Of a stretch of DNA of 62,379 nucleotides, positions 35,052 through 49,290 are shown one piece after another. Position 1 is the first letter of the stretch, and each line of letters starts with the position of its first letter. Below the pieces are notes generated by a model, which saw nothing but the letters and a program-made list of their open reading frames with translations, was not told where the DNA came from and searched no databases. Both the position numbers and the translations under genes were made by a program. This stretch comes from Candidatus Micrarchaeota archaeon (GTDB taxonomy: Archaea > Micrarchaeota > Micrarchaeia > Anstonellales > Bilamarchaeaceae), in contig JAUWMC010000001.1 of assembly GCA_030613375.1 (NCBI GenBank), forward strand, positions 1 to 62,379, written 5' to 3'.

Positions 35052-36500
35052 ATGTTCATGGAGGGCCTCAAAAAGCACGGAATACGAATCGCTCTCGATG
35101 CAGAAGAGTTCATAACTCAGCATTCCATAACTGAATCTGAAATCATATCCATAAACAAAAAGTTTATCTCCAAAGAAGATCTGGGGCCCATTCTCAAAAA
35201 GAGGGAAGAGGAAAAAGATCTCAAGCCAGAGCCCAAAAAAGCAGAGGTTTCCCTCCCCGCAGACTTCAAGCCACTTGCAAAGGAATATGGTCCAGAAATA
35301 AAAGTTCGCGAGTCTCTGGATGTAACCGGAAAATCACGCACAGAAGGGGGTGTATCTGATTTTGTAAATTATTTCCGCAACCGATATGAACGACTTTCCG
35401 CCCTTCTCCGCACCTACAGCGGCAGATATCCAGAAGCAGATTTGGAAGGAATTTCCAAGCTCGTAGGGCAGAAGGTGCGTGTAATCGTAATGGTTTCCGA
35501 AATCCGTGAAACCAAAAAAGGAAACATTCTCCTTCAGGTGGAAGACCTTACCGGCCAATTCAAAATCGTTATTTCCCAAAGAGACGAAATCGCATTTACC
35601 AAGGCCAAAAACCTTGTAAACGATGAGGTAATTCTTGTTTATGGAAAAGTTCTTCCTGCCTTTATAGTTGCGGAGGACCTTGAATGGCCAGATCTCTCAG
35701 TAACCCGTGAAAAGAAAAAGCCCGAGCGAGACCTCGCAGCAGTTTACCTTTCCGATCTCCATTTTGGAAGCAAACAATTCCTTGGTGGATACTTCAATCG
35801 TTTCACAGACTGGATGAGTGGAAGGGGCGAAAACCAGGAGCTTGCAGGAAAAGTAAAGTATGTTTTTGTTGCAGGGGACATTGTAGATGGAATCGGAATT
35901 TACCCTAATCAGGAAAAAGACCTGGATATTGTGGATGTATTCAAGCAATACGAACTCTTTACTGATTTTGTGCAAGAACTTCCGGATTACGTGGAAGTAA
36001 TCGTATGTCCAGGAAACCACGATGCAGTAAGAAGAGCAGAGCCCATGCCCGCACTTTCAAAAGAAATCCTGAATTGCGATGTCCTAAGTTTAGGAAGCCC
36101 TTCCACACTCTGCGTTGAAAACTCCGAGCATCTTCTTTACCACGGAACTTCCGCAGATGGGTGGATTGCAACCCTTTCCCACCTGAGCTATGACAAGCCC
36201 GAAAAAGTTATGGTTGAATGCCTAAAGAGGCGTCACCTCTCCCCCATGTTTGGGGGAAATGCAATCGTTCCAGAAAAGATGGACTACCTAGTAATCGAAA
36301 AAGAGCCGGATATAGTCCATTTTGGACACGTGCACAAAAATGGATATACTCGCTACCGCGATTCCCTCATAATCAATTCTGGAACCTTCCAGGACACAAC
36401 AGAATTCCAGCAAAAGCAGGGACATATTCCCACCCCTGCAAAAGTTCCAATATATGAGTTTATGCACGACAAGTTGCGCACACTTGACTTCACACGGTGA
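35052..36500 (+). CDS. DNA polymerase II (PolD) small subunit DP1
   Basis: An OB-fold region is followed by the calcineurin-like phosphoesterase motifs 'YLSDLHFGS', 'FVAGDIVDG', 'CPGNHD' and 'HFGHVH'. It lies directly upstream of DP2. Confidence 0.9.
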   Translation: MFMEGLKKHGIRIALDAEEFITQHSITESEIISINKKFISKEDLGPILKKREEEKDLKPEPKKAEVSLPADFKPLAKEYGPEIKVRESLDVTGKSRTEGGVSDFVNYFRNRYERLSALLRTYSGRYPEADLEGISKLVGQKVRVIVMVSEIRETKKGNILLQVEDLTGQFKIVISQRDEIAFTKAKNLVNDEVILVYGKVLPAFIVAEDLEWPDLSVTREKKKPERDLAAVYLSDLHFGSKQFLGGYFNRFTDWMSGRGENQELAGKVKYVFVAGDIVDGIGIYPNQEKDLDIVDVFKQYELFTDFVQELPDYVEVIVCPGNHDAVRRAEPMPALSKEILNCDVLSLGSPSTLCVENSEHLLYHGTSADGWIATLSHLSYDKPEKVMVECLKRRHLSPMFGGNAIVPEKMDYLVIEKEPDIVHFGHVHKNGYTRYRDSLIINSGTFQDTTEFQQKQGHIPTPAKVPIYEFMHDKLRTLDFTR

Positions 36501-36504
36501 AAAG

Positions 36505-39500
36505 ATGGATTATTTCGAAACACTCAGGAAAGATCTGGACCGGGTTTATACCCTTGCCCAGGAGGCCCGCAGGCAGGGCCTTGACCCTGAGAATAAGGTC
36601 GAAATCCCAATCGCAAAGGATGTTGCCGCGCGCGTTGAAGGTCTTGTAGGCCCTCGTGGAATAGCTTCCATAATCCGTGATATGGAACAAGGAGGGATGT
36701 CCCGCCCGGAAATTGCATTCAACATTGCAGAAAAGCTTGCCTCAGGTGAAATACTCCAAGGAGACAAGCGCACTCTTATCGAGCAGGCAATTCGCACAAG
36801 CGTAGGAATCCTCACCGAAGGAGTCCTCGTAGCTCCAACAGAAGGAATCGCAGATGTCCAGATAAACCAAAATCCAGATGGAAGCGATTACGTTTCAGTA
36901 TTATTTGCAGGCCCAATTCGAAGTGCGGGCGGAACCGTTGCAGCACTCAGCGTTGCTCTCGCAGACCATGCCCGCAAGAAAGCAGGAATAGGGGATTTCC
37001 GCCCCACAGAGACTGAGATCGCCCGCTATGTGGAAGAAGTAAATGTTTATGAGCACAGGTGTGTGCATCTTCAGTACAAGCCTCCGGATGAGCATGTTGC
37101 GCACATAATCCGCAATTGTCCGGTATGCATAGATGGCGATCCCACAGAAGAAGTTGAGGTTTCAGTGCATAGGGACCTGGAGCGCATAAAGAGCAACCGC
37201 ATCCGCGGAGGCGTGGCCCTTGTTACCTGTGAAGGAATTGCTGCAAAGGCACCCAAAGTGCTCAAGTTCACCAAAAAATTCGGCTTAGGGTGGGACTGGC
37301 TCCAGGAAGTAATCAAGGTAAAGAAAAAAGCCGACAAGGTTGAAATCAAGCCCGACCTTTCATATCTTGAAGGCCTTGTTGCAGGCCGTCCAGTATTTTC
37401 CTACCCCATGGAAAAAGGAGGATTCCGCCTCAGATACGGCCGCAGCCGCACCAATGGAATAATGGGCAGGAATGTTCATCCTGCTACTATGTACCTCCTT
37501 GATTCTTTTGCTGCAAACGGTACCCACGTAAAAGTGGAGCGCCCGGGAAAAGGAGCAATACTAACAGCATGCGACTCAATTGAAGGCCCGGTTGTAAAGC
37601 TCAAGGATGGCTCAGTTGTAAAAGTGAAAACTAGCCAACAGGCAGAAGAACTCCATGATGATGTGGAACAAGTTCTCTTTATAGGAGACATGCTCGTCAC
37701 TTATGGGGATTTCTACAAAACTAACCATCCAATGATGCCTGCAGGTTATTGCCTGGAATGGTGGGTGCAGGAAGCCCAGGAAGCTGGTATTGAAAATCCG
37801 CCCGAAACCCCTTCCGCAAAAGAAGCCTTCGAGCTTTCCAGAAAAAACAAAGCACCACTTCACCCGGATCACACTTACCCCTGGAATGATTCAAGCAATG
37901 AAAAGCTCCTCGCCCTTTCCACATCCCTCTCAGAAGGAATAATGAAGTTAGATGGAGGGGAAATTGTGGGTCTAGAACTTCCAACATTAGATGGAAAGGA
38001 AATCCTTGAAGAGCTCTTAGTAGAGCACAAGGTTTTGGATTCCAAAATCCTTTTTGATGGGGACTCTGCATTCACCCTCCTTTCTTCCTTTGGAATGCTC
38101 TCAGGAAGGGAAATCTCCCCACCCCCCCAGCTGAATGATGAACTCACTCCTCTCGAAAACATTAATTCCCTTTCCGAAATCACAATCAGAAACAAAAACC
38201 CCACATACATAGGCGCAAGGATGGGAAGACCTGAAAAAGCCAGGGAAAGAATGATGGATGGCCGTCCCCACGTGCTCTTTCCTACTGCAACCATGAAGGA
38301 TCGCAGCATTACTAAACGCTACAAAAGCCTCAAGGCAAGGGAAAAAGAACGCTCCATAAACGCTGATATCGCCCGTTACAAATGCACAGGATGCGGCATC
38401 ACCACGTTCTATGCACGCTGTCACTCTTGTGGAGAGGTTGCAAAGCAGGAACGAATCTGCCAGAAGTGCAGCGCAGTAACTACGGAAAAAGAACACTGCG
38501 AAATGCCCACACTCTTTCACGACCGCCGTCCGGTCCCGCTTGTAGAGATGTACGAAGCTGTAAAGAGCGAGCTCGGGTTTGCCCCTCCAGAAGTACGCGG
38601 CGTAAAAGGAATGATTAGCATGAACAAGATTCCAGAACGCCTGGAAAAGGGTTTCCTCCGTGCAAAGCACGACGTATATGTATTCAGGGACGGAACTTGT
38701 AGGTTCGATGCTACGGATGCCCCAATGACCCATTTCCGCATTTCCGAAATCGGGCAAACTCCCGAAGGAATCAGAAAACTTGGGTATACTCAGGATCACA
38801 AGGGAAAGCCCATAACAACCGCAGACCAGGTAATCGCGCTTAACTGCCAGGACATCATTATCGCCTCATCAGGAATGGACTACATGGCCAGGATGACGGA
38901 CTTTATGGATGATCTTCTTGTAAACCTTTATGGAATGAAGCCATTCTACGAAGTTCAAAATCGTGAGGATCTTTTCGGCCATTTAGTTGTGGGCCTTTCC
39001 CCGCACACTTCCGGAGGTGTTCTTGGCCGCATAATCGGATACACAGATGCAAACGTATGCTATGCCCACCCCTATTTCCATACTGCAAAGCGCCGAAACT
39101 GTGACGGTGACGAAGATACAATAATACTTTTGCTTGATTGTCTCATCAACTTCTCCCGAGCCTACCTTTCCAACCGGAGAGGGGGCACAATGGATGCACC
39201 CCTTACGATTACTCCTCAGATAAACCCGAATGAAGTGGATGATGAAGTGCATTGTATGGAAGTATTGAACAAGTATCCTTTGGAATTCTACCGCGCCTGC
39301 GAGCGCAACGTATTCCCAGGAGAAATCAAACTTAAAACAGTACAAGATCTTCTTGGGAAGGATGAAGAGTATGGAGATCTAGGATTTACTCATGATACTG
39401 AAACAATAAACGATGGCCCGATGCGGACAAGTTACGTAACTTTAGGTTCAATTCCAGAAAAAATCAAAGCAGAATTCGAGCTCCACGAAAAACTTAGGCC

Positions 39501-39846
39501 CGTGAATATGCAAAATGCTGCAGAGCGTTTAATCCTGAGCCACTTTATTCCAGACCTCTACGGAAATTTGCGCTCTTATTCCAGGCAGACCTTCCGCTGT
39601 GTAGGTTGCAATACAATCTTCAGAAGAACCCCGCTTTCAGGAAAATGTACCCATTGTGGAGGAAAACTCACCCTTACTATCCACAAAGGAGGCATAATGA
39701 AATACCTTGAAATCTCCAAGCGCATGGTTGAAGAGTACTCCCTTCCTCTCTACTTAGGCCAGAGGCTCGAGCTCCTTGAAAAGGAAATCGGAAGCATCTT
39801 TGAAGATGAGAAAATCAAGCAGACTGGTCTTTCTGATTTTATGTGA
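36505..39846 (+). CDS. DNA polymerase II (PolD) large subunit DP2
   Basis: 'MDYFETL......A...GLDP...VEIP.A.D.A.RVEGLVGP', 'LFAGPIRSAGGT' and Cys clusters (CTGCG...CHSCG; CVGCN...CTHCGG) are present. At 1113 aa there is no room for an intein. GGTGA SD precedes the ATG. Confidence 0.92.
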   Translation: MDYFETLRKDLDRVYTLAQEARRQGLDPENKVEIPIAKDVAARVEGLVGPRGIASIIRDMEQGGMSRPEIAFNIAEKLASGEILQGDKRTLIEQAIRTSVGILTEGVLVAPTEGIADVQINQNPDGSDYVSVLFAGPIRSAGGTVAALSVALADHARKKAGIGDFRPTETEIARYVEEVNVYEHRCVHLQYKPPDEHVAHIIRNCPVCIDGDPTEEVEVSVHRDLERIKSNRIRGGVALVTCEGIAAKAPKVLKFTKKFGLGWDWLQEVIKVKKKADKVEIKPDLSYLEGLVAGRPVFSYPMEKGGFRLRYGRSRTNGIMGRNVHPATMYLLDSFAANGTHVKVERPGKGAILTACDSIEGPVVKLKDGSVVKVKTSQQAEELHDDVEQVLFIGDMLVTYGDFYKTNHPMMPAGYCLEWWVQEAQEAGIENPPETPSAKEAFELSRKNKAPLHPDHTYPWNDSSNEKLLALSTSLSEGIMKLDGGEIVGLELPTLDGKEILEELLVEHKVLDSKILFDGDSAFTLLSSFGMLSGREISPPPQLNDELTPLENINSLSEITIRNKNPTYIGARMGRPEKARERMMDGRPHVLFPTATMKDRSITKRYKSLKAREKERSINADIARYKCTGCGITTFYARCHSCGEVAKQERICQKCSAVTTEKEHCEMPTLFHDRRPVPLVEMYEAVKSELGFAPPEVRGVKGMISMNKIPERLEKGFLRAKHDVYVFRDGTCRFDATDAPMTHFRISEIGQTPEGIRKLGYTQDHKGKPITTADQVIALNCQDIIIASSGMDYMARMTDFMDDLLVNLYGMKPFYEVQNREDLFGHLVVGLSPHTSGGVLGRIIGYTDANVCYAHPYFHTAKRRNCDGDEDTIILLLDCLINFSRAYLSNRRGGTMDAPLTITPQINPNEVDDEVHCMEVLNKYPLEFYRACERNVFPGEIKLKTVQDLLGKDEEYGDLGFTHDTETINDGPMRTSYVTLGSIPEKIKAEFELHEKLRPVNMQNAAERLILSHFIPDLYGNLRSYSRQTFRCVGCNTIFRRTPLSGKCTHCGGKLTLTIHKGGIMKYLEISKRMVEEYSLPLYLGQRLELLEKEIGSIFEDEKIKQTGLSDFM

Positions 39847-39901: not shown

Positions 39902-40342
39902 TTATACGTATTTCCTTGCCATCGGTCCGATGTATGGAAGCTCATATTCCTCTCCATTGAATGCTTTGTATGCACAATAGAGGGCCGCTACACATGCAAC
40001 AAGCCAAATCGCAATTCCTGCAAGTCCGAATACGCATGCAAGCACTCCAATTACGGGAATGAAGCCTACAATCGTGCTGATAATGAAGAGCACAACAGCG
40101 ACAACGAATGTCCCTACCCAGAGAAGAATTGACTGCATTGAGTGGAACCTCAGAGACTTGTCATCCTTCTTAACTAGGTACATAATAATTGCGATCAGCC
40201 CGATAATATAACCCACAGCTGCCAGAAGGTTGCTTTCACTGGCTCCTCCGGAGGAAGCCGCTGGTTTACTTTCCACTGGCTTCTTTTCCACAGGCTTTTC
40301 TGCAGGCGTCTCGGCTTTAGTTTCAGTTTTCTTTTCAGCCAT
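39902..40342 (-). CDS. DUF4870-like small membrane protein
   Basis: The start is taken at MAEKK (40342). A Lys/Pro/Glu-rich N-terminus is followed by 'LLAAVGYIIGLIAIIMYLVKKDDKSLRFHSMQSILLW' and 3 further TM helices. Confidence 0.6.
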   Translation of the reverse strand: MAEKKTETKAETPAEKPVEKKPVESKPAASSGGASESNLLAAVGYIIGLIAIIMYLVKKDDKSLRFHSMQSILLWVGTFVVAVVLFIISTIVGFIPVIGVLACVFGLAGIAIWLVACVAALYCAYKAFNGEEYELPYIGPMARKYV

Positions 40343-40436
40343 TAAACCACCATTATTCGAACCTACATAGTGCAGGATGTTTTTAAATGTTTTCCAGTTT
40401 CCCTCTTTCCTCTGTCCGGAGCCATATAAGGAAACA

Positions 40437-40446
40437 TTTATATTTA
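40437..40446 (+). promoter_or_regulatory. TATA box for the leaderless giant ORF
   Basis: TTTATATTTA is centred ~26 nt upstream of ATG 40467. No SD is present. Confidence 0.5.
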
Positions 40447-40466
40447 TCAACAGTCGCAATTTATTC

Positions 40467-43400
40467 ATGCAGTCTACGGCTACCCTCCGCAAAAAGAAAA
40501 AACCAGGAAGCAAGCTTGAGGGCGTAGTTGCATCACGAACAGAGTTTCCCCCTATCGTAAGCGAAGTAACGGACCATACAATCGCAGAGCTAGAAACTGC
40601 AGTAGCCCTTCTTGAAGGATCAATCGGCCCTGATCTTTTGGATGATGCATACCTCATTATACTTGGAAATGAGCCCTCACTCCTAAGCAAAGAATTCCTG
40701 GAGTTTAAAAAAGGCTCAGAGGTGATCCCCCTCCCTCCAAAAGGCGAGGAAATCCGTGGTTATCTGGAAATGTACTCAAAGCAAAGGCAGGACATTATGG
40801 AAAAGCAGATTGCAGGGGAAAAAACTAAGGAGGAACCATCATTTCTAAACATTGAAATTCTAGAGGATAAGGGCCTGTTGATAATCACCAACACGCGTTA
40901 CATCCCTCCGGGCATCAGGGAAAAGGCAAAAAATCTAGCCCCTCTTTTGGAGAAGATACTTTCTTCAGGAAACGAGGAACAGATTCTTACGGCATTCAGC
41001 TGCTGGGAGGAACTCAAGTTTTCCATGGAGCAGCACTCATATTATAAAGCCAGGGTCGGGACAGAAATATCTAGGAACAAGGTAGCTTTTGCAGAGGTCA
41101 CGGCAGAGATCTCTGAAACATATGGCAAAATAGCAGAAGAAATGATTAACAGGCTTACCGACCTTGCAGAAGGCAGACAAATTTCTCAGATTTCCACGCT
41201 TGCCACTTCCTCGTTGCAGACAAAGCTGACGAATTTGAAGGGAAAGGCTGCAGATATGCAAATGGAGAGTGCCACACGCAAATTCACAGGGATAGATGCA
41301 ATCGAGCGCATAGAACGGGGGATCGAGTTTGGCTTGTATTCCAATGTGGAAATTGTGATGTACAAGCAGATTGCAGGGGAACTGAAAGCAGCGCTTGGCA
41401 GGGTAAAAGGGTTCTCTAAAACCGCACTCGACCGCATCAGCCTGGACGGATACGAGGGCCTTGCAGGCTGGCAGAAAAAGGAAGTTGAACGCTCAATAGG
41501 CCTTGTAGCCCACCTTGAATGCATCGCATGGAAAATAGACCTGAAAGACAGGGTAAGTGCATTGAAGGGAAAGATGCCCGCCAACCGCAATGTGCCCAGT
41601 ATAGGCAGGCTGATTGCATCACAGCACATTCCCATGAACCAGCTCACGGTTCAGTCCAGGAAAGAAATGATGCTCTTAGGGAAACGCGCAAAAGAGCACT
41701 TTTCTTACCTTAAATCATTCATATACCATGCAGGAGATCTAACCAAAGAAGAAAAGGAAAAATATACTGCAAAGCTTGACCAGATGTCCAAAAACATCAC
41801 AAAGTTCCAGCTTCCAGGGGAATTTTCCACAACTTCCAAGAAACTTACCACGGCGCTTGAGGGAGTAGAGCAGGTCCTTGGGGAGCGCCATTTGGAACGT
41901 GTTGCAGAGGATGAGCAGAACCCCTGGAATGTACGCACCTCAGCTTACACTAAGCTTTATGTGCTAAGGCACAGCCTTGAGATAATCGGAGCAACCACTG
42001 CAATCGGTGGGGTTGCAGGAGGAATAAGTTCACGGAGCCCTGCAGGCGCATGGGCCGGAGCCAAGGTAGGAGCAGGAGCCGGAAGCCTGATTGTTGCTGC
42101 AGCAGGCGCATTTGTAACCGGGGATGCAATGTACCGCTACTTCTCAGGAACAGGAGACCTGGAACAGGCAGTTGAAGATATGCGTCTCGGTGCCACATAT
42201 ATGCTCTTTGGGCTTGGAGGGGGTCCGATAGCCGCGATAAGCACTCCCATAAAACTCATTGCAGGAGGCGGTGCAGCGCTTGCAAACACCCTACTTATGT
42301 GGGAAGACATAAAACGGGGCAACTACTGGGAGATTCCTGCAGACGTTGCCTATATGGCAATTGGGGGCGTTGCATTCTTCCGTGTTGCAGGGGGTGTTCT
42401 GATGGCAACTCGCCTTGCGAAACCCCTCAAGTCCGCAATGGTAATCGTAAACTCATCCGGGGTTGCCCGCATTTCATTAAAGGGGCTAAAGAAGCTGGAA
42501 ACCATCAGCACCCGCGCACTAAAAGTAGGATATACTCCTACCTGGATTGGTCTGAATGCCGCGTTTGGAGGCCTTTCCCAGTGGCACAACATCTCAACCG
42601 CAATAGAAAATGGAAATTATGGAATTGCATTTAGCTACCTGAACCGTGGCTTTGCTGAAGTTACCCGTGGAATGGTAGGATTTGATTTTGCACTCTTTGG
42701 GGTTGCAGGCTCCACTCTGAAAGCAGGCGCAGCTCCTGTTGCCCGATACTTCCGTGTAGCAGTTCCCGCTGCACAGGCAAGAGCAGTTAATCTCTTGAGT
42801 GCCGAAGGCCTTTACGAACGTGTTTCTGATCTTGCGCGCAAAGCAGGCGCCAAGACCTTCCAGCCTAAAACCAATGCACAGCTTCTTGAGCTTGCATTTG
42901 CAAGCGAAGGGAGGGTTTCTGCAGAATTCGTGCAGGCTACGCTTGGCCTGGAAAGCCGTGCAGCTGCCCACACCATTTCCACTGAGATAAACACTAGCTG
43001 GCGCCTCGCAAGGAGGATTCTTGCAAAAGGTAAGGCCGCAGGAAAGATCGCATGGAACAAGGTTGGAAGAAACATGAAGCGGATTGCAAAAACCCGCGCA
43101 GCAAGGCTTGCTGCACATGGAGCAAAGGGAGCAGTGCTTATTGGTGCAGTTGGCTACATGGAATTCGAGAATATTGAATCCCGGAAACTTGCAACAGAAC
43201 TGAACAACCTGATGAATAAGAGTGAAGCACAATTCCTCAATTACCTTCTTGCTTCCCCCCATCCTGAATTCGGAACTTCCCAGCTTGAGATGGCAAAAGT
43301 TGTAAATGCAATGAGCCTGGTCAATTCAATATCAGATGATGTTGATGATGGGGTGCACCCGCTTGCACTTCAGCTCGAGCTTGGAGGGGATATTGAAAAA

Positions 43401-43898
43401 AGAAAGCGCCTCCTGCTTTCCGGGGCAATTTCCCTGATGATGGAGGGGCATGAAGTTACTGATGAAAACCTTTCTTCCATTATCTCCGAAATGGACAGCC
43501 TTTTCACTAGAACCGGAATCGAGCTGAAGGTGCATACCCCCACCGGGACCCTTGCGCTTATGGGTTCAATCCTGCTGCAGGAAGGCCCAGACCAGTTCGC
43601 AGAAGCATATGCTTCTATGTCCAGGAATACTTCAGAGCCGCAATATCTGGACTACATGGTTTCCTCATATTACTGTGCTTCAACATTAGGGAGAAGCACG
43701 AACTGGGCTTCAGATGTTTCCTTTGAAGTGTTCCAGGCACTTATAGAGAATGACATGGAGGGCAAGGTGCTCGGATGGCCTCTTGTACGGACATTCCAGG
43801 CGCTGGAAGGACGTGCACATTCCCCTGAGCGGATAGTTGCTGCTGCGAAAAGGGCAATATGGGAAGGGAGGACAGGAGCCTTTGCAAGAGAGGAATAA
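40467..43898 (+). CDS. giant hypothetical protein (1143 aa): helical N-terminal half, Gly/Ala-rich multi-TM core, helical C-terminal region
   Basis: Uninterrupted ORF with no catalytic or known domain motif recognised. The antisense track ORFs within it are low-complexity shadows. Confidence 0.7.
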   Translation: MQSTATLRKKKKPGSKLEGVVASRTEFPPIVSEVTDHTIAELETAVALLEGSIGPDLLDDAYLIILGNEPSLLSKEFLEFKKGSEVIPLPPKGEEIRGYLEMYSKQRQDIMEKQIAGEKTKEEPSFLNIEILEDKGLLIITNTRYIPPGIREKAKNLAPLLEKILSSGNEEQILTAFSCWEELKFSMEQHSYYKARVGTEISRNKVAFAEVTAEISETYGKIAEEMINRLTDLAEGRQISQISTLATSSLQTKLTNLKGKAADMQMESATRKFTGIDAIERIERGIEFGLYSNVEIVMYKQIAGELKAALGRVKGFSKTALDRISLDGYEGLAGWQKKEVERSIGLVAHLECIAWKIDLKDRVSALKGKMPANRNVPSIGRLIASQHIPMNQLTVQSRKEMMLLGKRAKEHFSYLKSFIYHAGDLTKEEKEKYTAKLDQMSKNITKFQLPGEFSTTSKKLTTALEGVEQVLGERHLERVAEDEQNPWNVRTSAYTKLYVLRHSLEIIGATTAIGGVAGGISSRSPAGAWAGAKVGAGAGSLIVAAAGAFVTGDAMYRYFSGTGDLEQAVEDMRLGATYMLFGLGGGPIAAISTPIKLIAGGGAALANTLLMWEDIKRGNYWEIPADVAYMAIGGVAFFRVAGGVLMATRLAKPLKSAMVIVNSSGVARISLKGLKKLETISTRALKVGYTPTWIGLNAAFGGLSQWHNISTAIENGNYGIAFSYLNRGFAEVTRGMVGFDFALFGVAGSTLKAGAAPVARYFRVAVPAAQARAVNLLSAEGLYERVSDLARKAGAKTFQPKTNAQLLELAFASEGRVSAEFVQATLGLESRAAAHTISTEINTSWRLARRILAKGKAAGKIAWNKVGRNMKRIAKTRAARLAAHGAKGAVLIGAVGYMEFENIESRKLATELNNLMNKSEAQFLNYLLASPHPEFGTSQLEMAKVVNAMSLVNSISDDVDDGVHPLALQLELGGDIEKRKRLLLSGAISLMMEGHEVTDENLSSIISEMDSLFTRTGIELKVHTPTGTLALMGSILLQEGPDQFAEAYASMSRNTSEPQYLDYMVSSYYCASTLGRSTNWASDVSFEVFQALIENDMEGKVLGWPLVRTFQALEGRAHSPERIVAAAKRAIWEGRTGAFAREE

Positions 43899-43944
43899 TT
43901 TATAAATAATTAATGACGCAATACTATTGACTGATGGTGAAATA

Positions 43945-46695
43945 ATGGGCGGAAAACAAAAACAACCACAATCTGAATATGGCATGGTGGACGAAAGAAA
44001 ATTGGCAGGGAAAACACCCAGAAGGGTAAATATGCCACCAATACCTACACAAGACCAGATTCTCAACAAAGTTGCAAAGGCATTTAAGGTAAAGCTTGAA
44101 GGTATGGGCACTGTTACTGCAGGAGAATATGTGGAAGCATTAGAGGCAATGACAGAAAGGACGGAAAGAGTCCTTGAGCACATGGCTGAGACATACTCTC
44201 CGGAAAAGATTTATGGGGAAAATGCAGGAAAGAAACTCGCAGGAACTCCAAAATTCCCAAAATCTGACATAAAAGTTCTCACCAAAAAGCAGCTTATGCA
44301 GGCACTTGCTGAACGTGCAGAAATTCTTTCTATTGCAGAATCGCTTGAGGGGATGGGCCTTAGGAAAGTTTGTGAAGATTTAGTTTCAAGAGTAAAGGAC
44401 GCAAAAAACGTTTCAAAAATGGAGTATGAATCATTTCTAAACAGGTTCATTGCGGGGGAGGAACGCATCGAAGCTATCCTCAAGGACATTACTTTGGATA
44501 AGGGTGAAAGGGCAGGAATAAATGCACTGCTTAAGCGGAAGGACAACCTCGGTATTCTTGAAATGGGCCGGAATTTTAATGCGGTGAAAGGCTTCAACTA
44601 TCCCACGGCAGGAATCAAGGACTGGGCCTTGAAAAAAGCAGATTGGCTTGCTAGGGTTAATCTTGCAGATGCATTAGGGGGAGCAAAATGGGCGTTAAAG
44701 TTTTCATTTGTAGATTCTTCTGCGAAACTTGGAGAAGAAGTTGCAAAACAATATGAGAAAAAGCATGCTAAATTTACAAGAAAAATAAGCCTTCTTAACA
44801 TTGGGAAAGTGGCTGTTGCAGCAGCAGTTGTTCTTGGTGCAGGATACCTATTCAGGTGCGTTGGCGGATTTTTCATTGGCAGTGATAAAGGGGAAGAGGG
44901 CAGCAGGTCTTCAGTAAAAAAGAAGAAAAGGACCCCAGTCTCCCCGGCAGAAATCGAACTCTACAAAAATCCCTTGTTCAGGGCCAAGGACAAAACCGGG
45001 ACCCCAAAATTCGTTGCCATTGCCAAGCACATGACTGCCATGAAGCTATCTGAGGAAGCGCAGGTAAAGGTTGCAAAAATCCTGAACAAGCTCCCTGGCC
45101 AGTTTGTAAGGGGCATGGACCTGAGGGAGTCAGTTGAGCTTGCAATAATACTTAGAAAACTTTCACCCGGCGTGTTCATCCAGAAACTTGCAGATACAGT
45201 TGTTTCAATACAGCAGTATATCGATTCTTCCAAAACAAAAGATTTTGCTTGGACTCTTGTGAAATCCGACAAAGCCAAGAAAGGGGATGTAAACTACTGG
45301 ATTGAGAATCCCCCTTATAAAAATATCCTGACTGAAGCGTGGTATACTAGGCCGTTCCCTGCATTTGTCAAGGCAGGCTTTAAGCCAGAAACAAAATTTC
45401 TTGGAGTTCTTTTCAGTACGGTGAGAAAGGCCAAAGTGAAGAAAGGCAAGGCAATGGTTCCGCTAACGTTTGCAGAGCAGAATGAACTTGCAGGTTCACT
45501 GGCAACATATTATTTCTCTACCAAAAAGAAGAAAATTCCTGAAACGTACCAAAAAGACCTCGAAGTAATCCTGAAGCTGAGGGCCAAAGGTTTCAGGATG
45601 GGCAAAGTAGTTGCAATCCTGGCAAAATTGGATTCAATCTACAAGCCTGAGCACAGGGATCGCGTTTTCAATAGTATGCTGCCAAGGTTAGCCCCAGACA
45701 TGAAAGAGGGGGCCCTAGTTGTAGCCCTAGAAGCGCCCGCAGTCAAGAATCCTAAATTGGCAGCAAAACACTGGGAATCCGCCCAAGGGATCCAAAGGCA
45801 GCAGTTCCTCACCCTAACCGAACAAGGCTTCAAAAAACCGAAAGCAGAGGAAATAGTCTCAAACTTGCAGGCTGTCTATAAGCCGGAACATTTGGATAGC
45901 GTTTTCAAGATTATTCTGCCAAAGCTCAAGCCTGGCATGAAAGAAGAGGCTAGGGTTGTCGCGATCGAAGCATCCGCAGTCAAGAATCCTAAATTGGCAG
46001 TAACAGGCTGGAAACCCCTCCAAGCGACCTTAAGGCGATACAACCTCAGCTTAATTGAACAAGGCTTCAAAAAACCGAAAGCAGAGGAAATAGTCTCAAA
46101 CTTGCAGGCTGTCTATAAGCCGGAACATTTGGATAGCGTTTTCAAGATTATTCTGCCAAAGCTCAAGCCAGGCATGAGTGAAGGTGAGTTCAGGATAACT
46201 ATAGAGGCACCAGCATTCAGGAACAGGTCAATGGGGAATAAACACTGGGTTTCTTCTATAGACTCGCGCCTTTCATTCCTTCTGGAAAAAAATGCAAAGA
46301 TCATAAGCAAAACCCTGAGGGAAAACTCTCAGGTTTATTATGAGAAATCCATAGGGATTGTACTTGCGCTTTCGAAATTGTGGCAGAAAGAATATGGGCA
46401 ATTTACAGCTAAGGAGTTTAAGGTTCTCCATCCACAGATTGCCTCCCTTTCCAGGTCTGATTCATTAGCCCATTTGACTCCGGCTGAATTGGCAAAAATC
46501 CTGATAGTTATTTCATCATCAGTGAAACCAAAAACTATCAACATAGGTTCCGGAAAGAATAGGAAGCGTGTGACTCCAAGGGAAGAAGTGCTTAGGCATC
46601 TGGAGAACAAGTTCACAGGGCAGAAGCCAACCGTTGCAGCAATCCTTGCTGAAATGGTCAGCTATCTTGAGGCAAACCCGGAGTATACATTCTAG
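43945..46695 (+). CDS. giant hypothetical protein (916 aa): one TM segment, Lys-rich, three 79-aa tandem repeats
   Basis: The ATG at 43945 is preceded by GGTGA. The TM is 'IGKVAVAAAVVLGAGYLFRCVGGFFIG'. The repeats are listed separately. Confidence 0.7.
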   Translation: MGGKQKQPQSEYGMVDERKLAGKTPRRVNMPPIPTQDQILNKVAKAFKVKLEGMGTVTAGEYVEALEAMTERTERVLEHMAETYSPEKIYGENAGKKLAGTPKFPKSDIKVLTKKQLMQALAERAEILSIAESLEGMGLRKVCEDLVSRVKDAKNVSKMEYESFLNRFIAGEERIEAILKDITLDKGERAGINALLKRKDNLGILEMGRNFNAVKGFNYPTAGIKDWALKKADWLARVNLADALGGAKWALKFSFVDSSAKLGEEVAKQYEKKHAKFTRKISLLNIGKVAVAAAVVLGAGYLFRCVGGFFIGSDKGEEGSRSSVKKKKRTPVSPAEIELYKNPLFRAKDKTGTPKFVAIAKHMTAMKLSEEAQVKVAKILNKLPGQFVRGMDLRESVELAIILRKLSPGVFIQKLADTVVSIQQYIDSSKTKDFAWTLVKSDKAKKGDVNYWIENPPYKNILTEAWYTRPFPAFVKAGFKPETKFLGVLFSTVRKAKVKKGKAMVPLTFAEQNELAGSLATYYFSTKKKKIPETYQKDLEVILKLRAKGFRMGKVVAILAKLDSIYKPEHRDRVFNSMLPRLAPDMKEGALVVALEAPAVKNPKLAAKHWESAQGIQRQQFLTLTEQGFKKPKAEEIVSNLQAVYKPEHLDSVFKIILPKLKPGMKEEARVVAIEASAVKNPKLAVTGWKPLQATLRRYNLSLIEQGFKKPKAEEIVSNLQAVYKPEHLDSVFKIILPKLKPGMSEGEFRITIEAPAFRNRSMGNKHWVSSIDSRLSFLLEKNAKIISKTLRENSQVYYEKSIGIVLALSKLWQKEYGQFTAKEFKVLHPQIASLSRSDSLAHLTPAELAKILIVISSSVKPKTINIGSGKNRKRVTPREEVLRHLENKFTGQKPTVAAILAEMVSYLEANPEYTF
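45589..46299 (+). repeat. three tandem 237-bp (79-codon) repeats inside the 916-aa ORF
   Basis: Units start at 45589, 45826 and 46063 (GF[RK]..K...I...L...YKPEH.D.VF...LP+L.P.M.E). 45820-45940 and 46057-46177 are identical except for 1 nt. Units 1 and 2 share an identical 25-mer, GCAGTCAAGAATCCTAAATTGGCAG. Confidence 0.9.
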
Positions 46696-46743: not shown

Positions 46744-48135
46744 GTGAAGATATACAATTCTCTCTCCAGGCAGACAGATGAATTTGAGCCAATTGAAAAA
46801 GGCAAAGTTTACATGTATGTATGTGGCCTTACTCCCTATGACCACGCTCACTTGGGCCATGCAAGAACCTATATTTCCATGGACACAATAAAGCGATATT
46901 TTCTCCACAAGAAATTTGAAGTGCTTCATATCCAAAACATCACGGACATTGAAGACAAGATTTTCAACCGCTCAAAGGAAACAGGCAAATCTCCATTAGA
47001 ACTTTCGGAAAAGTTCCAGGGCGAGGCAATGGAAGAATTCGACCGCCTCAATATACTTCCCGCAGACCATTATCCAAAGGTAAGCGAGCACATTCCGGAA
47101 ATCATTGAAATGATAAAAAAACTTATTGAAAACGGGCATGCTTACGAAACCAAAACTGGAGTCTATTATTCAGTCTCCTCTTTTTCGGAATATGGAAAAC
47201 TTTCCGGGCAAAAACTCGAGGAAATGGAGCATGGTTGCAGGCTGAAAGTGGACGAAACCAAAAAAGACCCCGCGGATTTCGCGCTCTGGAAAAAAGGCCC
47301 GGATGTATTAACTTTCGACAGCCCATGGGGGGAAGGAAGGCCAGGTTGGCATATTGAATGCTCTGCAATGGGCATGAAATATACAAACGGAAGAACTTTG
47401 GATATCCATGGAGGGGGAAGGGACCTTATGTTCCCCCACCACGAAAATGAAATAGCCCAGGCAGAAGGTGCGCTAAACCAGAAATTTGTAAAATGCTGGA
47501 TGCACACAGGATTTCTCACAGTAAAGGGGGAGAAAATGTCCAAATCCTTAGGGAATTTCATAATCCTCAAAGATCTTCTGGAAAAATACCCTCCTTATGC
47601 ATTAAGACTATTCTTCCTACACAGCCATTATAGAAGCCCGGTAAACTATAGTGAGGAGAACATCTCCTCTGCACAAACAACCGCAGAAAGGATGTTCAAC
47701 TTTATTGAGCACGCAGATGAGCTCCCTGTTTCAGGAGGAACGGAAAACACAGAGCTCAGAAAAAAGCTCCACGGAGAAGTGGATGGATTTTATAAAGTAA
47801 TGGACAATGATTTCGACACCCCAAATGCACTTTCCCATATGTTCGGCATAATGACCGAATGTTTTTCGGAAATGCGAAAGGAGCAGCCGGATTACCCTGC
47901 AATTGCAGAAGCAAAAGAAGATTTCAAGAAGATGATGTGGATACTGGGCCTGGAAAAAGAAAAGAAGAAAATCGACCCAGAAAAAGAAAAAGAAATAGAT
48001 TCTCTTGTCCAAGACAGGGAAAATGCCAGAAAGGAAAAGAATTTCAAGCTGGCGGATGAGATAAGGGATAAGCTCTCTGAAATGGGAGTGATATTGGAAG
48101 ATACAGATAAAGGACCTAGATGGAAACTAAAATGA
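46744..48135 (+). CDS. cysS: cysteinyl-tRNA synthetase
   Basis: It has 'MYVCGLTPYDHAHLGHARTY' (HIGH), 'GWHIECSAM' and 'KMSKSLGN' (KMSKS). The start is GTG. Confidence 0.92.
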   Translation: MKIYNSLSRQTDEFEPIEKGKVYMYVCGLTPYDHAHLGHARTYISMDTIKRYFLHKKFEVLHIQNITDIEDKIFNRSKETGKSPLELSEKFQGEAMEEFDRLNILPADHYPKVSEHIPEIIEMIKKLIENGHAYETKTGVYYSVSSFSEYGKLSGQKLEEMEHGCRLKVDETKKDPADFALWKKGPDVLTFDSPWGEGRPGWHIECSAMGMKYTNGRTLDIHGGGRDLMFPHHENEIAQAEGALNQKFVKCWMHTGFLTVKGEKMSKSLGNFIILKDLLEKYPPYALRLFFLHSHYRSPVNYSEENISSAQTTAERMFNFIEHADELPVSGGTENTELRKKLHGEVDGFYKVMDNDFDTPNALSHMFGIMTECFSEMRKEQPDYPAIAEAKEDFKKMMWILGLEKEKKKIDPEKEKEIDSLVQDRENARKEKNFKLADEIRDKLSEMGVILEDTDKGPRWKLK

Positions 48136-48144: not shown

Positions 48145-49290
48145 ATGCGTTGGATACTTGCGATATTTCTCATAGGGCTGCTTCTTGTTGCAGGCTGCCC
48201 CCAGGAAGAAGTGGTTGAGGCTGAGCCTGAACCAGAGCCGGAGCCAGAACCGGAACCGGAACCAGAACCGGAGCCTGAACCCGAAGTAATAACGATTGGG
48301 TATATTGGCCCGCTTTCAGGAGACAATTCCCTTGAAGGAACCGAAGCACTTAATGCAATCAAGCTCGCAGCTTCAGAACTTTCAACTCAGGACTATATCT
48401 ATGAAATAGCAGAGCAGGATGGACAGTGTACTGAAGAAGGTGCAGCATCCGCTCTCCAGTCCCTCGTAGATTTCCGTGGAGTAAATGTAATTATCGGAGG
48501 AGTATGTACTGAAGAAGTAGATGGGATAGCACCGCTTCTTGAGCAAAATAATGTGGTGCTTATCTCCCTTGCAACCGGAAACGCTGACAATGATTATGCA
48601 ATGAACTTTGCAGGCTCACCTGAACTTATTGGGGAAGAGATTGCCCAGTTCTGCGTGAATAATGCCTGGCTCAGGACGATGACCATAACTGACGGGACCC
48701 CAGATGCGGAAGCAAAAGAGGCCCTTTTCGATGCAGCAGCAAAGGCAGCCAAGCTTTCTACACAGCCAGCCCAAACCTACAATGAAAATTTCGCTTCCAC
48801 AGTTTCAATAATCAAAGGATACCAGCCTCAGGTTGTGCTGGTATTTGCATCTGATGGAGCAACTGCAGCGGACATTGTGAACCAACTCAAGGATGGAGGA
48901 ATTGAATCTGAAATAATCGGGGATGAAAACATTGTTTCCTCATCCGCAATCTCCGCAATGGGTGCAAATGGAGAGGGAGTGCATGCAATCCTTCCCGAAT
49001 TTGATGCAACCGACCCTGCGGCTTCCTATTTCATGAACAGCTATGTTTCAAGGTATGGGAATCCTTCAAACCAAGTGCTGGTTGCAGATGCAAGGAACGC
49101 GATGTACCTTCTTTCACAGGCAGAGGAGTTCTATTACTACAAAGCAACCGTACAGGACTTCCAGCAGTATTGGACGAACCTGGAAAGCTGGGCAGGAATG
49201 GGTGCGACACTTACATTCGAGAATGGAGACAGGGTTGCTTCGTTCAGGATGGTTAAAGTGAGCGGCGGGACCACGCAACAGGTCTCGTAA
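48145..49290 (+). CDS. lipobox lipoprotein, type-1 periplasmic-binding-protein fold (LivK-like solute-binding protein)
   Basis: The lipobox 'LLLVAGC' is followed by an (EP)10 linker, then 'ITIGYIGPLSGDNSLEGTEALNAIKLA...DGQC....A..A...L....GV.VIIGGVC' as in Leu/Ile/Val-binding proteins. No permease or ATPase gene is adjacent. Confidence 0.6.
   Translation: MRWILAIFLIGLLLVAGCPQEEVVEAEPEPEPEPEPEPEPEPEPEPEVITIGYIGPLSGDNSLEGTEALNAIKLAASELSTQDYIYEIAEQDGQCTEEGAASALQSLVDFRGVNVIIGGVCTEEVDGIAPLLEQNNVVLISLATGNADNDYAMNFAGSPELIGEEIAQFCVNNAWLRTMTITDGTPDAEAKEALFDAAAKAAKLSTQPAQTYNENFASTVSIIKGYQPQVVLVFASDGATAADIVNQLKDGGIESEIIGDENIVSSSAISAMGANGEGVHAILPEFDATDPAASYFMNSYVSRYGNPSNQVLVADARNAMYLLSQAEEFYYYKATVQDFQQYWTNLESWAGMGATLTFENGDRVASFRMVKVSGGTTQQVS
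48223..48285 (+). repeat. hexanucleotide GAR-CCN x10 repeat encoding the (Glu-Pro)10 linker
   Basis: Read directly: gag cct gaa cca gag ccg gag cca gaa ccg gaa ccg gaa cca gaa ccg gag cct gaa ccc gaa. Confidence 0.9.

What the first reader, a model, noticed from the sequence alone, without database searches (positions are those of the whole stretch)
40467..46695. Pair of giant, domain-less ORFs (1143 + 916 aa) forming a 6.2-kb two-gene unit
The two co-oriented ORFs are 46 nt apart (stop at 43898, ATG at 43945). The first is leaderless, with a TATA box 26 nt upstream. The second has a GGTGA SD, consistent with a single transcript. I recognise no enzymatic, nucleotide-binding or known structural motif in either. 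Both start with basic Lys/Pro-rich N-termini, are dominated by long helical stretches and contain membrane segments, yet neither has a signal peptide. Together they take up ~10% of the window. Very large orphan membrane-associated proteins in reduced archaeal genomes are prime candidates for cell-cell contact, membrane remodelling or effector delivery. This is the largest unexplained coding block in the window.
Basis: inference. Interest (0 to 1): 0.7.

Follow-up and report, generated by a model that had tools for sequence, protein, structure and literature searches.

The report
Orphan two-protein module of Micrarchaeota
Two large neighbouring genes encode fast-evolving, all-helical proteins found only in a rare group of tiny symbiotic archaea (Micrarchaeota); they match no known family or fold, and their conserved glycine-zipper core suggests they act at a membrane.

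Summary
ORF1 (40467-43898, 1143 aa) and ORF2 (43945-46695, 916 aa) are real genes under purifying selection (dN/dS 0.15-0.29). They evolve 4-8 times faster than the flanking PolD and CysRS genes.

No family was found by Pfam, NCBIfam, PHROGs, PADLOC, PDB profile searches or Foldseek on the AlphaFold2 models. A profile search of 1.84 billion representatives found only 14 ORF1 relatives, and every relative whose source record names an organism is from Micrarchaeota.

The pair stays adjacent, typically 44-49 nt apart, in every locus with an ORF1 relative of comparable size (1140-1406 aa), including two with unrelated neighbourhoods.

- ORF2 has its own conserved TATA box directly after the ORF1 stop, so a single transcript is not required.
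- The "membrane segments" are marginal, well short of the true membrane helices encoded in the same window.

The best-conserved part of ORF1 is a Gly/Ala-rich core with an invariant GxxxG...GxxxGxxxG zipper hairpin, followed by a cationic amphipathic helix. ORF2 is a lysine-rich helical protein (net +59) with one short hydrophobic segment and a recent 79-aa repeat expansion.

Best guess (about 0.4): a cytoplasmically made complex that associates with a membrane. A role at the host contact is possible but untested.

The parts
40430..40445 (+). ORF1 promoter: BRE-like GGAAAC plus TATA box (TTTATATT at 40437-40444). It is centred about 26.5 nt before the ATG, with no SD, which implies a leaderless mRNA.
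   Evidence: The block GGAAACATTTATAT is near-identical in L001, L002, L003, L008, L014 and L020, and recognisable in L006, L012, L013 and L016.
40467..43898 (+). ORF1, 1143 aa, an all-alpha orphan protein (founding member of a Micrarchaeota-only family).
40467..41906 (+). ORF1 aa 1-480. A basic N-terminal tail (MQSTATLRKKKKPGSK), a small alpha/beta unit (aa ~84-142), then helical bundles. This is the fastest-evolving part: mean identity to relatives is 31-36%, and dN/dS reaches 0.27 in aa 1-160.
41907..42746 (+). ORF1 aa 481-760. Gly/Ala-rich (16.5% A, 15.8% G), weakly hydrophobic helical core. It is the most conserved region of the family (51-55% mean identity, dN/dS 0.07-0.12).
   Evidence: The distant relatives match mainly profile positions ~450-1100.
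42006..42083 (+). Glycine zipper hairpin: G514-x3-G518, an R-S-P turn, then G527-x3-G531-x3-G535-x3-G539. G514, G518, G527, G531 and G535 are invariant in all 14 aligned family members, down to 21% identity.
42957..43094 (+). ORF1 aa 831-876. A cationic, Trp-bearing amphipathic helix (hydrophobic moment 0.62-0.63, net +9) inside the Ala/Arg/Lys-rich region aa 761-900 (net +14). Candidate helix that binds the membrane surface.
   Evidence: W845 is conserved in at least 90% of the 14 sequences.
43167..43895 (+). ORF1 aa 901-1143. Acidic (net -15) helical C-terminal domain, AlphaFold2 pLDDT mostly 60-82.
43899..43908 (+). TTTATAAATA, a TATA box directly after the ORF1 stop. Candidate independent promoter of ORF2.
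   Evidence: Present at the same place in 10 of 12 loci. The spacer is 44-49 nt in most loci with both genes, including L021/L022.
43936..43940 (+). GGTGA Shine-Dalgarno sequence, 4 nt before the ORF2 ATG.
   Evidence: (GAT)GGTGA is conserved in most relatives.
43945..46695 (+). ORF2, 916 aa. A lysine-rich (12.7% K, net +59) all-alpha orphan protein.
44785..44880 (+). ORF2 aa 281-312. The only hydrophobic segment (VAVAAAVVLGAGYLF + RCVGGFFIG). It has a basic N-flank and an acidic-then-polybasic C-flank. Its position and flank pattern are kept in most partners, but its hydrophobicity is marginal.
44881..44979 (+). ORF2 aa 313-345. Conserved basic motif SVKKKKRTPVSPAEIELYKNPLF.
45589..46299 (+). 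Three tandem 79-aa helical units: R1 45589-45825, R2 45826-46062, R3 46063-46299. Relatives have one unit. R2 is a hybrid: its first 37 codons are 99% identical to R3 and its second half resembles R1. This indicates a recent unequal crossover.
39902..40342 (-). Divergently transcribed small DUF4870 (MamF/MmsF-like) membrane protein. It is a conserved neighbour in most loci but absent in two (L016, L017), so it is probably synteny rather than part of the module.

Best explanation
ORF1 and ORF2 are a vertically inherited two-gene module restricted to Micrarchaeota. Each gene has its own promoter. They encode two large all-alpha proteins made in the cytoplasm that most likely work together at a membrane.

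ORF1 is built around a strongly conserved core of about 280 aa, rich in Gly and Ala. The core has an invariant glycine-zipper helix-turn-helix (GxxxG / RSP turn / GxxxGxxxGxxxG) and further weakly hydrophobic helices with low hydrophobic moment. A cationic, Trp-bearing amphipathic helix follows immediately.

I infer that this core is an amphitropic element that inserts into a membrane and drives oligomerisation. Its helices are too weakly hydrophobic for ordinary co-translational membrane insertion. They resemble the hydrophobic hairpins that soluble proteins use to enter a bilayer after translation, packing tightly through small residues. The fast-evolving N-terminal and C-terminal helical domains would stay in the cytoplasm.

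ORF2 is a polybasic helical-repeat protein with one short, positionally conserved hydrophobic segment. I infer it is the partner, anchor or adaptor, and that it binds an anionic surface (lipid head groups, or the acidic C-terminal domain of ORF1).

Shown here:
- the genes are real and under purifying selection;
- the family is orphan;
- the pair is linked across relatives;
- the promoter layout is conserved;
- the zipper is invariant;
- hydrophobicity is marginal;
- the protein charge pattern.

Inferred:
- membrane association;
- physical interaction of the two proteins;
- cytoplasmic location of the bulk of both proteins;
- a structural or channel-like role rather than an enzymatic one.
For: Genes and selection:
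- dN/dS is 0.15-0.29, against 0.03-0.05 for the flanking DP2 and CysRS. Amino-acid identity is 59-78% (ORF1) and 43-62% (ORF2) where the flanks are 86-94%.

Linkage:
- An ORF2 homologue lies a short spacer (typically 44-49 nt) downstream of the ORF1 homologue in L001-L008, L012-L014, L020 and L021/L022.
- In L016 the surrounding genes are unrelated, yet an ORF2 homologue still follows after 47 nt (hhalign E 3.7e-8).
- In L017 and L023 a partner with the same layout and spacing follows, but homology is not detectable.

Core:
- G514, G518, G527, G531 and G535 are invariant in 14 sequences down to 21% identity.
- The core is the most conserved region and has the lowest dN/dS (0.07-0.12).
- The zipper helices have low hydrophobic moment (0.19-0.34) and positive mean hydrophobicity. 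Helix 831-871 that follows has moment 0.62 and net +9.

Weak leads only, all pointing at Gly-zipper membrane hairpins:
- Sub-threshold DUF6861 in 3 of 14 members, best 23.2 bits against a cut-off of 28. DUF6861 is described as a glycine-zipper membrane domain of toxins in 10.1101/2022.08.23.504947.
- Hbl-L1 head hairpin, E 0.1. NheB, E 0.14, in one member.

Cytoplasmic synthesis:
- No signal peptide; both N-termini are basic.
- N-x-S/T sequons are at or below chance (0-7 per ~1150 aa in ORF1).

ORF2:
- Net +59 in the window, +22 to +73 in most relatives. The hydrophobic segment is positionally conserved and has a basic N-flank.
Against: - No hydrophobic window in either family reaches the range of true membrane helices from the same genome. 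ORF1 family: +2.2 to +4.4. ORF2 family: +2.8 to +9.2, and two clear ORF2 homologues have essentially no such segment.
- The AlphaFold2 model of the ORF1 core has pLDDT below 50, so nothing structural supports a membrane hairpin.
- Adjacency is the only evidence that the two proteins interact.
- ORF2's positive charge is not universal (+5 in L013).
- The weak DUF6861, Hbl and NheB hits may be compositional.
- There are no localisation, expression or phenotype data.
Confidence: 0.4

Rival explanations
1. The two proteins form a purely soluble cytoplasmic scaffold or a nucleic-acid-associated pair. In this reading the Gly/Ala-rich helices are only tightly packed interior helices. The polybasic ORF2 would bind DNA or RNA (nucleoid organisation, replication or ribosome-related) next to the replication genes.
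For: - Hydrophobic windows lie between the membrane and soluble controls.
- ORF2 carries net +59 with 12.7% Lys.
- There are no signal peptides, and sequons are scarce.
- The genes sit in conserved synteny with PolD DP1/DP2, CysRS and nearby FtsZ genes.
- All regions are under purifying selection.
Against: - No nucleic-acid-binding domain was detected. The tRNA_bind and MetG_C hits are below threshold, cover about 30 aa, and occur in only one family member.
- The pair stays linked when the replication genes are not adjacent (L016, L017).
- ORF2's charge falls to +5 in L013.
- An invariant multi-turn glycine zipper followed by a cationic Trp-bearing amphipathic helix is more typical of membrane-interacting segments (my own knowledge).
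Confidence: 0.25
2. The pair would be a host-directed, contact-dependent binary system. ORF1 would insert its glycine-zipper hairpins into the host membrane to form a pore, bridge or fusion-like structure. ORF2 would act as an exposed, repeat-bearing partner that binds the host surface.
For: - Glycine zippers underlie membrane permeabilisation or translocation in contact-dependent bacterial systems: Tde1 (PMC10240207), the two-protein CdzC/CdzD bacteriocin (PMC5380434), TelE (10.1101/2022.09.07.506920) and EsxX (PMC12744356). I took these from titles and abstracts only.
- Marginal hydrophobicity fits proteins that are soluble and then insert into a membrane.
- The pair evolves 4-8 times faster than its neighbours.
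- ORF2 shows a recent repeat expansion.
- The flanks of the ORF2 hydrophobic segment (basic N-side, acidic C-side) would favour an N-in/C-out orientation.
- The family is restricted to a phylum of presumed obligate symbionts.
Against: - There is no signal peptide, and no recognisable secretion-related domain in the neighbouring genes scanned with Pfam or covered by the precomputed annotations. Several neighbouring ORFs have no hit at all.
- No region has dN/dS above 0.40, so there is no arms-race signal at this resolution.
- Sequons are not enriched.
- The genes are single-copy, in housekeeping synteny, with constitutive-looking promoters.
- No relative turned up in the profile search outside the few contigs listed, although I did not check which Micrarchaeota genomes the library holds.
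- The host or hosts of this lineage are unknown.
Confidence: 0.15
3. The pair is a domesticated remnant of a virus or mobile element, for example a protein like a phage tape-measure or ejection protein. Those are also long, all-alpha, and carry Gly-rich hydrophobic segments.
For: - The overall architecture resembles tape measure proteins (my own knowledge).
- The top non-significant BFVD Foldseek matches to the ORF2 model include tape measure and minor tail proteins (E >= 0.03).
Against: - No PHROG hit for the window proteins, and only noise-level single hits across the family.
- No relative in 2.9 million IMG/VR contigs, 50,697 phage records or 72,556 plasmids.
- No recognisable tail, capsid or integrase gene among the neighbours surveyed; the annotated neighbours are housekeeping genes.
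- The chromosomal position is stable across relatives.
Confidence: 0.03
4. These are chance or mis-called ORFs, or decaying pseudogenes.
For: None beyond the absence of annotation.
Against: - Uninterrupted 1143- and 916-codon frames.
- Full-length homologues in about 20 assemblies.
- dN/dS of 0.07-0.40 in every region.
- Conserved promoters and SD.
Confidence: 0.01

Closest known systems
Glycine-zipper membrane modules of bacterial contact-dependent and polymorphic toxins (Pfam DUF6861; Tde1, TelE, EsxX, CdzC/CdzD)
   Same: - Repeated GxxxG motifs in Gly/Ala-rich, weakly hydrophobic helices.
- Sub-threshold DUF6861 matches fall exactly on the ORF1 zipper in 3 of 14 members.
- CdzC/CdzD is also a two-protein system (PMC5380434).
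   Different: - No member reaches the Pfam cut-off, and the window protein gives no hit at all.
- ORF1 is far larger than the small zipper toxins such as CdzC/CdzD (my own knowledge), and its zipper is central rather than terminal.
- No toxin, immunity or recognisable secretion-related domain was found in or next to the pair.
- It is archaeal, chromosomal, single-copy and vertically inherited.
ClyA-family alpha-pore-forming toxin components (Hbl-L1, NheB; binary YaxAB-type systems)
   Same: - Long helices carry a Gly/Ala-rich hydrophobic helical hairpin at their tip.
- They are soluble proteins that insert after translation, and the components are encoded by adjacent genes (my own knowledge).
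- The top PDB profile hit aligns the ORF1 hairpin to the Hbl-L1 head region.
   Different: - E = 0.1-0.15, not significant.
- Foldseek gives no match.
- ORF1 and ORF2 are about three times longer.
- They have no signal peptide.
- They are not homologous to each other.
Phage tail tape measure and ejection proteins
   Same: Large, all-alpha, no enzymatic domain, Gly-rich marginally hydrophobic segments, no signal peptide (my own knowledge).
   Different: - No PHROG, IMG/VR or phage-genome match.
- There is no tail gene cluster.
- The chromosomal position between PolD and CysRS is stable.
Giant lineage-specific surface proteins of other DPANN archaea (e.g. SPEARE of Nanohaloarchaeota, PMC6642349; fam00969 of Woese-/Pacearchaeota, PMC8204110)
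   Same: Large, restricted to one lineage, no function prediction, and proposed by analogy to mediate host interaction.
   Different: - Those proteins are several thousand residues long and carry recognisable protease, adhesin, nuclease or transglycosylase domains and export signals (fam00969; SPEARE: my own knowledge).
- ORF1 and ORF2 have none of these and are purely helical.

Membership tests
Pfam DUF6861 (glycine-zipper integral membrane domain of polymorphic toxins) | Whole-protein score at or above the Pfam gathering cut-off (28 bits) | tested here: not met
   The window ORF1 gives no hit at E <= 1. The best family member (P0018) scores 23.2 bits; two others score 10-12 bits.
Pfam DUF6861 (glycine-zipper integral membrane domain of polymorphic toxins) | N-terminal position, fused to a C-terminal toxin domain | tested here: not met
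   The zipper is central (aa 514-539 of 1143). No toxin domain is found in any member.
Transmembrane glycine zipper motif ((G/A/S)xxxGxxxG) | Conserved GxxxGxxxG pattern in a hydrophobic helix | tested here: met
   G527/G531/G535(/G539) and G514/G518 are invariant in 14 sequences.
Transmembrane glycine zipper motif ((G/A/S)xxxGxxxG) | The helix actually spans a membrane | tested here: inconclusive
   Additive insertion energy is +2.2 to +4.4 kcal/mol for the best ORF1-family windows. That lies between the membrane and soluble controls. The AlphaFold2 core has pLDDT below 50.
ClyA/Hbl/Nhe alpha-pore-forming toxins | Significant sequence or profile match to a family member | tested here: not met
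   Hbl-L1 (7nmq) E = 0.1 with the 14-sequence profile. NheB E = 0.14 in 1 of 14 members.
ClyA/Hbl/Nhe alpha-pore-forming toxins | Elongated helical bundle with head hairpin, seen by structure comparison | tested here: inconclusive
   Foldseek against PDB gave no hit at E <= 0.001. However, the model is low-confidence in the relevant region.
Phage tape measure proteins | Match to a viral protein family, or location in a tail gene module or viral contig | tested here: not met
   No PHROG hit for the window proteins and only noise-level single hits in the family. No hit in IMG/VR or the phage genomes. The neighbours are housekeeping genes.
Secreted or surface proteins of archaea (S-layer, adhesins, DPANN giant surface proteins) | N-terminal Sec/Tat/class III signal peptide | tested here: not met
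   Both N-termini are basic and hydrophilic, with no hydrophobic core. This rests on reading the sequence, since no dedicated predictor was available.
Secreted or surface proteins of archaea (S-layer, adhesins, DPANN giant surface proteins) | Recognisable adhesin, protease or beta-rich extracellular domains, and enriched N-glycosylation sequons | tested here: not met
   No domains; all-helical models; sequons at or below chance.
Anti-phage defence systems (PADLOC) | Significant match to a defence protein model | tested here: not met
   Only noise: ZorB E 0.015 (12.8 bits) and RmrT E 0.0026 (15.7 bits, no stretch passing on its own).

The most novel reading that the evidence does not exclude
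ORF1 and ORF2 would be a previously unknown archaeal two-component, amphitropic glycine-zipper system. It would build the membrane conduit (pore, bridge or fusion-like junction) through which these Micrarchaeota exchange lipids, metabolites or cytoplasm with their hosts. ORF1 would form the oligomeric element that inserts into the membrane. The rapidly diversifying, repeat-expanding ORF2 would be the surface-binding partner.
Probability: 0.12. Interest if true: 0.85.

Novelty: categorically new. Interest (0 to 1): 0.45.

Why it matters
DPANN archaea depend on hosts, yet the molecules that build their cell-cell contacts are largely unknown. Most DPANN lineage-specific protein families also have no predicted function (PMC8204110).

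This pair takes up 10% of the window. It is one of the rarest families in the databases searched: 14 representatives among 1.84 billion. It is conserved as a linked module even where the surrounding synteny is lost.

Its most constrained part is an invariant glycine zipper, which gives a precise and mutable target for experiments. If the module acts at a membrane or at the host contact, it would define a new kind of archaeal membrane machinery. If it turns out to be a cytoplasmic scaffold, it is still a new fold family that marks one Micrarchaeota lineage.

Tried and rejected
1. Family libraries gave nothing above threshold. This covers Pfam, NCBIfam, PHROGs and PADLOC on the window proteins, and Pfam, NCBIfam and PHROGs on all 14 ORF1-family members. 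The tRNA_bind and MetG_C hits to the ORF2 repeat are rejected: about 30 aa, below cut-off, in one member only, and on a region predicted helical.
2. PDB sequence and profile searches with four alignments gave nothing significant.
3. AlphaFold2 plus Foldseek against PDB (both models) and BFVD (ORF2) gave no hit at E <= 0.001. Caveat: the alignments had only 7 and 4 sequences, so mean pLDDT was 54 and 66.
4. ORF1 and ORF2 are not paralogues of each other (hhalign E 0.14).
5. A viral or plasmid origin is rejected.
6. There is no RNA family and no notable DNA repeat in or around the genes apart from the ORF2 tandem repeat.
7. Antisense ORFs inside the two genes (up to 262 aa) were not pursued. The sense frames carry the conservation and the dN/dS signal.
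8. I first read L023 as a natural 'split ORF2' that could reveal topology. On inspection it is a tandem duplication of ORF2-like genes with duplicated promoter cassettes, so it does not inform topology.
9. A scan of JGI metagenome contigs added only two more loci, both with the same arrangement.
Full report
**1. The observation**

ORF1 runs from ATG 40467 to the stop at 43896-43898 (1143 aa). ORF2 runs from ATG 43945 to the stop at 46693-46695 (916 aa). They are 46 nt apart.

A longer reading of ORF1 from ATG 40377 is possible, and one database entry uses it (P0005). However, 6 of 7 close homologues and most distant ones start at the position of 40467, many with a conserved MQ[ST]xA followed by basic residues. 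The extra 30 codons would also translate the promoter.

The neighbours identify a core chromosomal region of an archaeon:
- two FtsZ genes;
- AglB/STT3;
- PolD small and large subunits (the large subunit at 36454-39846);
- a divergent DUF4870 membrane protein (39902-40342, minus strand);
- downstream, CysRS (46744-48135) and a Peripla_BP_6 protein.

Every related contig whose source record names an organism is labelled Candidatus Micrarchaeota or Micrarchaeia. The one exception is a MAG recorded as 'bacterium'.

**2. These are real genes that evolve fast under constraint**

I compared the window with five related contigs.

| Gene | dN/dS | Amino-acid identity |
|---|---|---|
| ORF1 | 0.15-0.21 | 59-78% |
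| ORF2 | 0.21-0.29 | 43-62% |
| PolD DP2, CysRS (same contigs) | 0.03-0.05 | 86-94% |

Region by region, no part exceeds 0.40. The pair therefore evolves 4-8 times faster than its neighbours at the protein level, but there is no sign of decay or of strong positive selection at this resolution.

**3. Orphan status**

- Pfam, NCBIfam, PHROGs and PADLOC give nothing above threshold for either protein.
- Scanning every member of the wider alignments does not change this.
- Profile searches of all PDB sequences give nothing significant.
- The word-indexed search of 5.8 billion proteins found 6 relatives of ORF1 and 3 of ORF2.
- The exhaustive HMMER profile search of 1.84 billion cluster representatives found only 14 ORF1 relatives at E <= 0.001.
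- Scans of one genome per GTDB species found 7 loci, and scans of JGI metagenomes found 2.
- IMG/VR, phage genomes and plasmids hold none.

The AlphaFold2 models are almost entirely helical but of limited confidence:
- ORF1 has mean pLDDT 54, and its core is below 50.
- ORF2 has mean pLDDT 66, and its C-terminal half is at 70-90.

Foldseek found no match at E <= 0.001 in the PDB for either model, or in BFVD for ORF2. The negative structural result is therefore meaningful for the ORF2 C-terminal half and for the ORF1 N- and C-terminal domains. It is weak for the ORF1 core.

**4. The pair is a linked module**

- In all close relatives the order is DP1, DP2, DUF4870 (minus strand), ORF1, ORF2, CysRS.
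- The same order holds in relatives whose ORF1 is only 31-37% identical: L012, L013 and L014. Their downstream protein matches the ORF2 profile at E 5e-10, 1e-4 (weak) and 6e-63.
- In L016 the neighbourhood is unrelated (RFC, S6e, eIF2-gamma). Even so, a 1324-aa ORF1 relative is followed 47 nt later by an 1182-aa ORF2 relative (E 3.7e-8).
- In L017, a relative with a strongly acidic, halophile-like proteome, a 732-aa protein follows after 45 nt. In L023, two tandem ORF2-like genes follow. Homology there is no longer detectable, but the layout is kept: a helical N-domain, then one short hydrophobic segment with a basic N-flank.
- Only the most distant hit stands alone. P0024 is 675 aa and matches the zipper core only.

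**5. Transcription signals**

Upstream of ORF1, the block GGAAACATTTATAT (40430-40445) is conserved, and its TATA box is centred about 26.5 nt before the ATG. No SD follows.

It begins, directly after the ORF1 stop, with a conserved TTTATAAATA (43899-43908). It ends with (GAT)GGTGA 4-6 nt before the ORF2 ATG. Its length is 44-49 nt in 8 of the 10 loci measured, and 45 nt in L021 and L022.

That geometry is what an independent promoter with a leader of about 15 nt carrying the SD would need (archaeal promoter spacing is from established knowledge). ORF2 probably has its own promoter. Read-through co-transcription is not excluded, but it is not required.

In L023 this promoter/SD cassette is itself duplicated in front of two ORF2-like genes.

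**6. Anatomy of ORF1**

- **aa 1-32:** basic tail.
- **aa 33-480:** a small alpha/beta unit and helical bundles. This is the least conserved part (31-36% mean identity to relatives).
- **aa 481-760:** a core with 16.5% Ala and 15.8% Gly. It is the best conserved part (51-55% identity, dN/dS 0.07-0.12).
- **aa 761-900:** Ala/Arg/Lys-rich helices, net +14.
- **aa 901-1143:** an acidic helical domain, net -15.

In the core, G514, G518, G527, G531 and G535 are invariant in all 14 aligned sequences, down to 21% overall identity. They form GxxxG, an R-S-P turn, then GxxxGxxxG(xxxG), which is a glycine-zipper helix-turn-helix.

The core helices have low hydrophobic moment (0.19-0.34) and positive mean hydrophobicity. 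Helix 831-871 that follows is strongly amphipathic (moment 0.62), carries net +9, and contains conserved Trp.

**7. Are these membrane proteins?**

I calibrated an additive Hessa-type insertion scale on proteins of the same window.

| Protein | Best 19-residue window (kcal/mol) |
|---|---|
| DUF4870 | -2.75 |
| AglB | -2.94 |
| Lipoprotein signal peptide | +1.4 |
| ORF1 family | +2.2 to +4.4 |
| ORF2 family | +2.8 to +9.2 |
| FtsZ (soluble) | +5.6 |
| DP2 (soluble) | +6.7 |
| CysRS (soluble) | +12.2 |

They are more hydrophobic than anything in the soluble controls, but short of helices that insert on their own.

ORF2 keeps one short hydrophobic stretch, typically about 15 uncharged residues. 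It sits at a conserved position, with a basic N-flank and an acidic-then-polybasic C-flank.

Neither protein has a signal peptide. N-x-S/T sequons are at or below chance.

**8. Anatomy of ORF2**

- It contains 12.7% Lys and carries net +59. Most relatives carry +22 to +73, but L013 carries +5.
- After the hydrophobic segment comes a conserved motif, SVKKKKRTPVSPAEIELYKNPLF, and then helical repeats.
- The window copy is about 170 aa longer than its relatives because a 79-aa unit is present three times (45589-46299).
- R2 and R3 are 99% identical over their first 37 codons, while the second half of R2 resembles R1. This points to a recent unequal crossover.

**9. What it most likely is**

I commit, at about 0.4, to the following. 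The pair is a cytoplasmically synthesised two-protein complex that associates with a membrane. The ORF1 zipper core is an amphitropic element for insertion and oligomerisation. The cationic amphipathic helix docks on anionic lipid. ORF2 is a polybasic partner or anchor.

The supporting leads are weak but point the same way:
- Sub-threshold DUF6861 matches fall on the zipper. DUF6861 is described as a glycine-zipper membrane domain of toxins (10.1101/2022.08.23.504947).
- Noise-level matches align the same hairpin to the head hairpin of Hbl-L1 and to NheB.
- Glycine zippers mediate membrane translocation or permeabilisation in Tde1, TelE, EsxX and the two-protein CdzC/CdzD system (PMC10240207, 10.1101/2022.09.07.506920, PMC12744356, PMC5380434). 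I saw only their titles and abstracts.

None of these amounts to family membership. Every membership test I could run failed or was inconclusive.

**10. Rivals**

- **Soluble scaffold or nucleic-acid-binding pair (0.25).** This fits the marginal hydrophobicity and the charge. It does not explain the invariant zipper with its amphipathic cationic helix, or the fact that linkage survives away from the replication genes.
It fits the fast evolution, the repeat expansion and the amphitropic character. It lacks any export signal, secretion machinery, positive-selection signal or localisation data.
- **Viral relic (0.03) and spurious ORFs (0.01).** Both are effectively refuted.

**11. Novelty and score**

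No known family, fold or system accommodates either protein, so I rate the pair categorically new as a protein module. Its function is unproven.

Interest is moderate (0.45), for these reasons:
- Lineage-specific orphans are common in DPANN genomes (PMC8204110).
- This one, however, is unusually large and extremely rare.
- It is tightly linked as a pair.
- It offers a sharp experimental handle in the invariant zipper.

Noticed in passing
window 45589-46299 (ORF2 aa 549-785): Three tandem 79-aa units where relatives have one. R2 is a hybrid: its first 37 codons are 99% identical to R3 and its second half is 73% identical to R1. This indicates a very recent unequal crossover or gene conversion inside a coding repeat.
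   Followed up: yes
L023 9267-9325 and 10532-10587: In the P0014 locus, two ORF2-like paralogues follow the ORF1 relative. Each is preceded by a near-identical cassette of about 58 nt (AAAC.GTTTTAAGCTTCCCCTGCCCCAAT...GGATGGTGAAG.GACATG). The first paralogue is only 401 aa and ends just after the hydrophobic segment.
   Followed up: partly
L006 2564-7285; L013 4113-8870; L023 1-4206: The PolD large subunit upstream of the pair carries an intein (Intein_splicing plus LAGLIDADG) in L006. It is similarly enlarged in L013 and L023. The window's DP2 (36454-39846) has no intein.
   Followed up: no
window 40377-40466: The longest ORF1 reading starts at ATG 40377 and translates the BRE/TATA promoter. 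One public entry (P0005, 1174 aa) uses the equivalent start, which is probably a mis-called start codon.
   Followed up: yes
window 27461-28804 (+) and 33169-34368 (-): Two more domain-less ORFs. One is 447 aa and lies between the two FtsZ genes. The other is 399 aa; ORFs of 399-401 aa occupy the same place in L001, L002, L003 and L020.
   Followed up: partly
window 48145-49290: A Peripla_BP_6 solute-binding protein with an N-terminal hydrophobic segment ending in Cys, followed by a run of about 14 Glu-Pro repeats. It looks like a lipoprotein held on a long acidic proline-rich linker.
   Followed up: no
L017 10001-16150: The most divergent full-length ORF1 relative (P0022) and its partner are strongly acidic (net -58 and -21; partner 1% Lys). 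This suggests a salt-adapted Micrarchaeota-related lineage. Here the pair lies next to AglB and two FtsZ genes on the opposite strand, so the region is rearranged relative to the window.
   Followed up: partly
L018 10001-12028: P0024 (675 aa) is a short, solitary protein that matches only the glycine-zipper core (E 5.7e-8). It sits on a 234-kb Micrarchaeota contig next to a HEPN/nucleotidyltransferase toxin-antitoxin pair. It may be a minimal version of the ORF1 core.
   Followed up: partly
window 40423-40432: A second TATA-like element (CATATAAGG) lies just upstream of the ORF1 BRE/TATA and is equally conserved in relatives. It may be the divergent promoter of the DUF4870 gene on the minus strand.
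   Followed up: no
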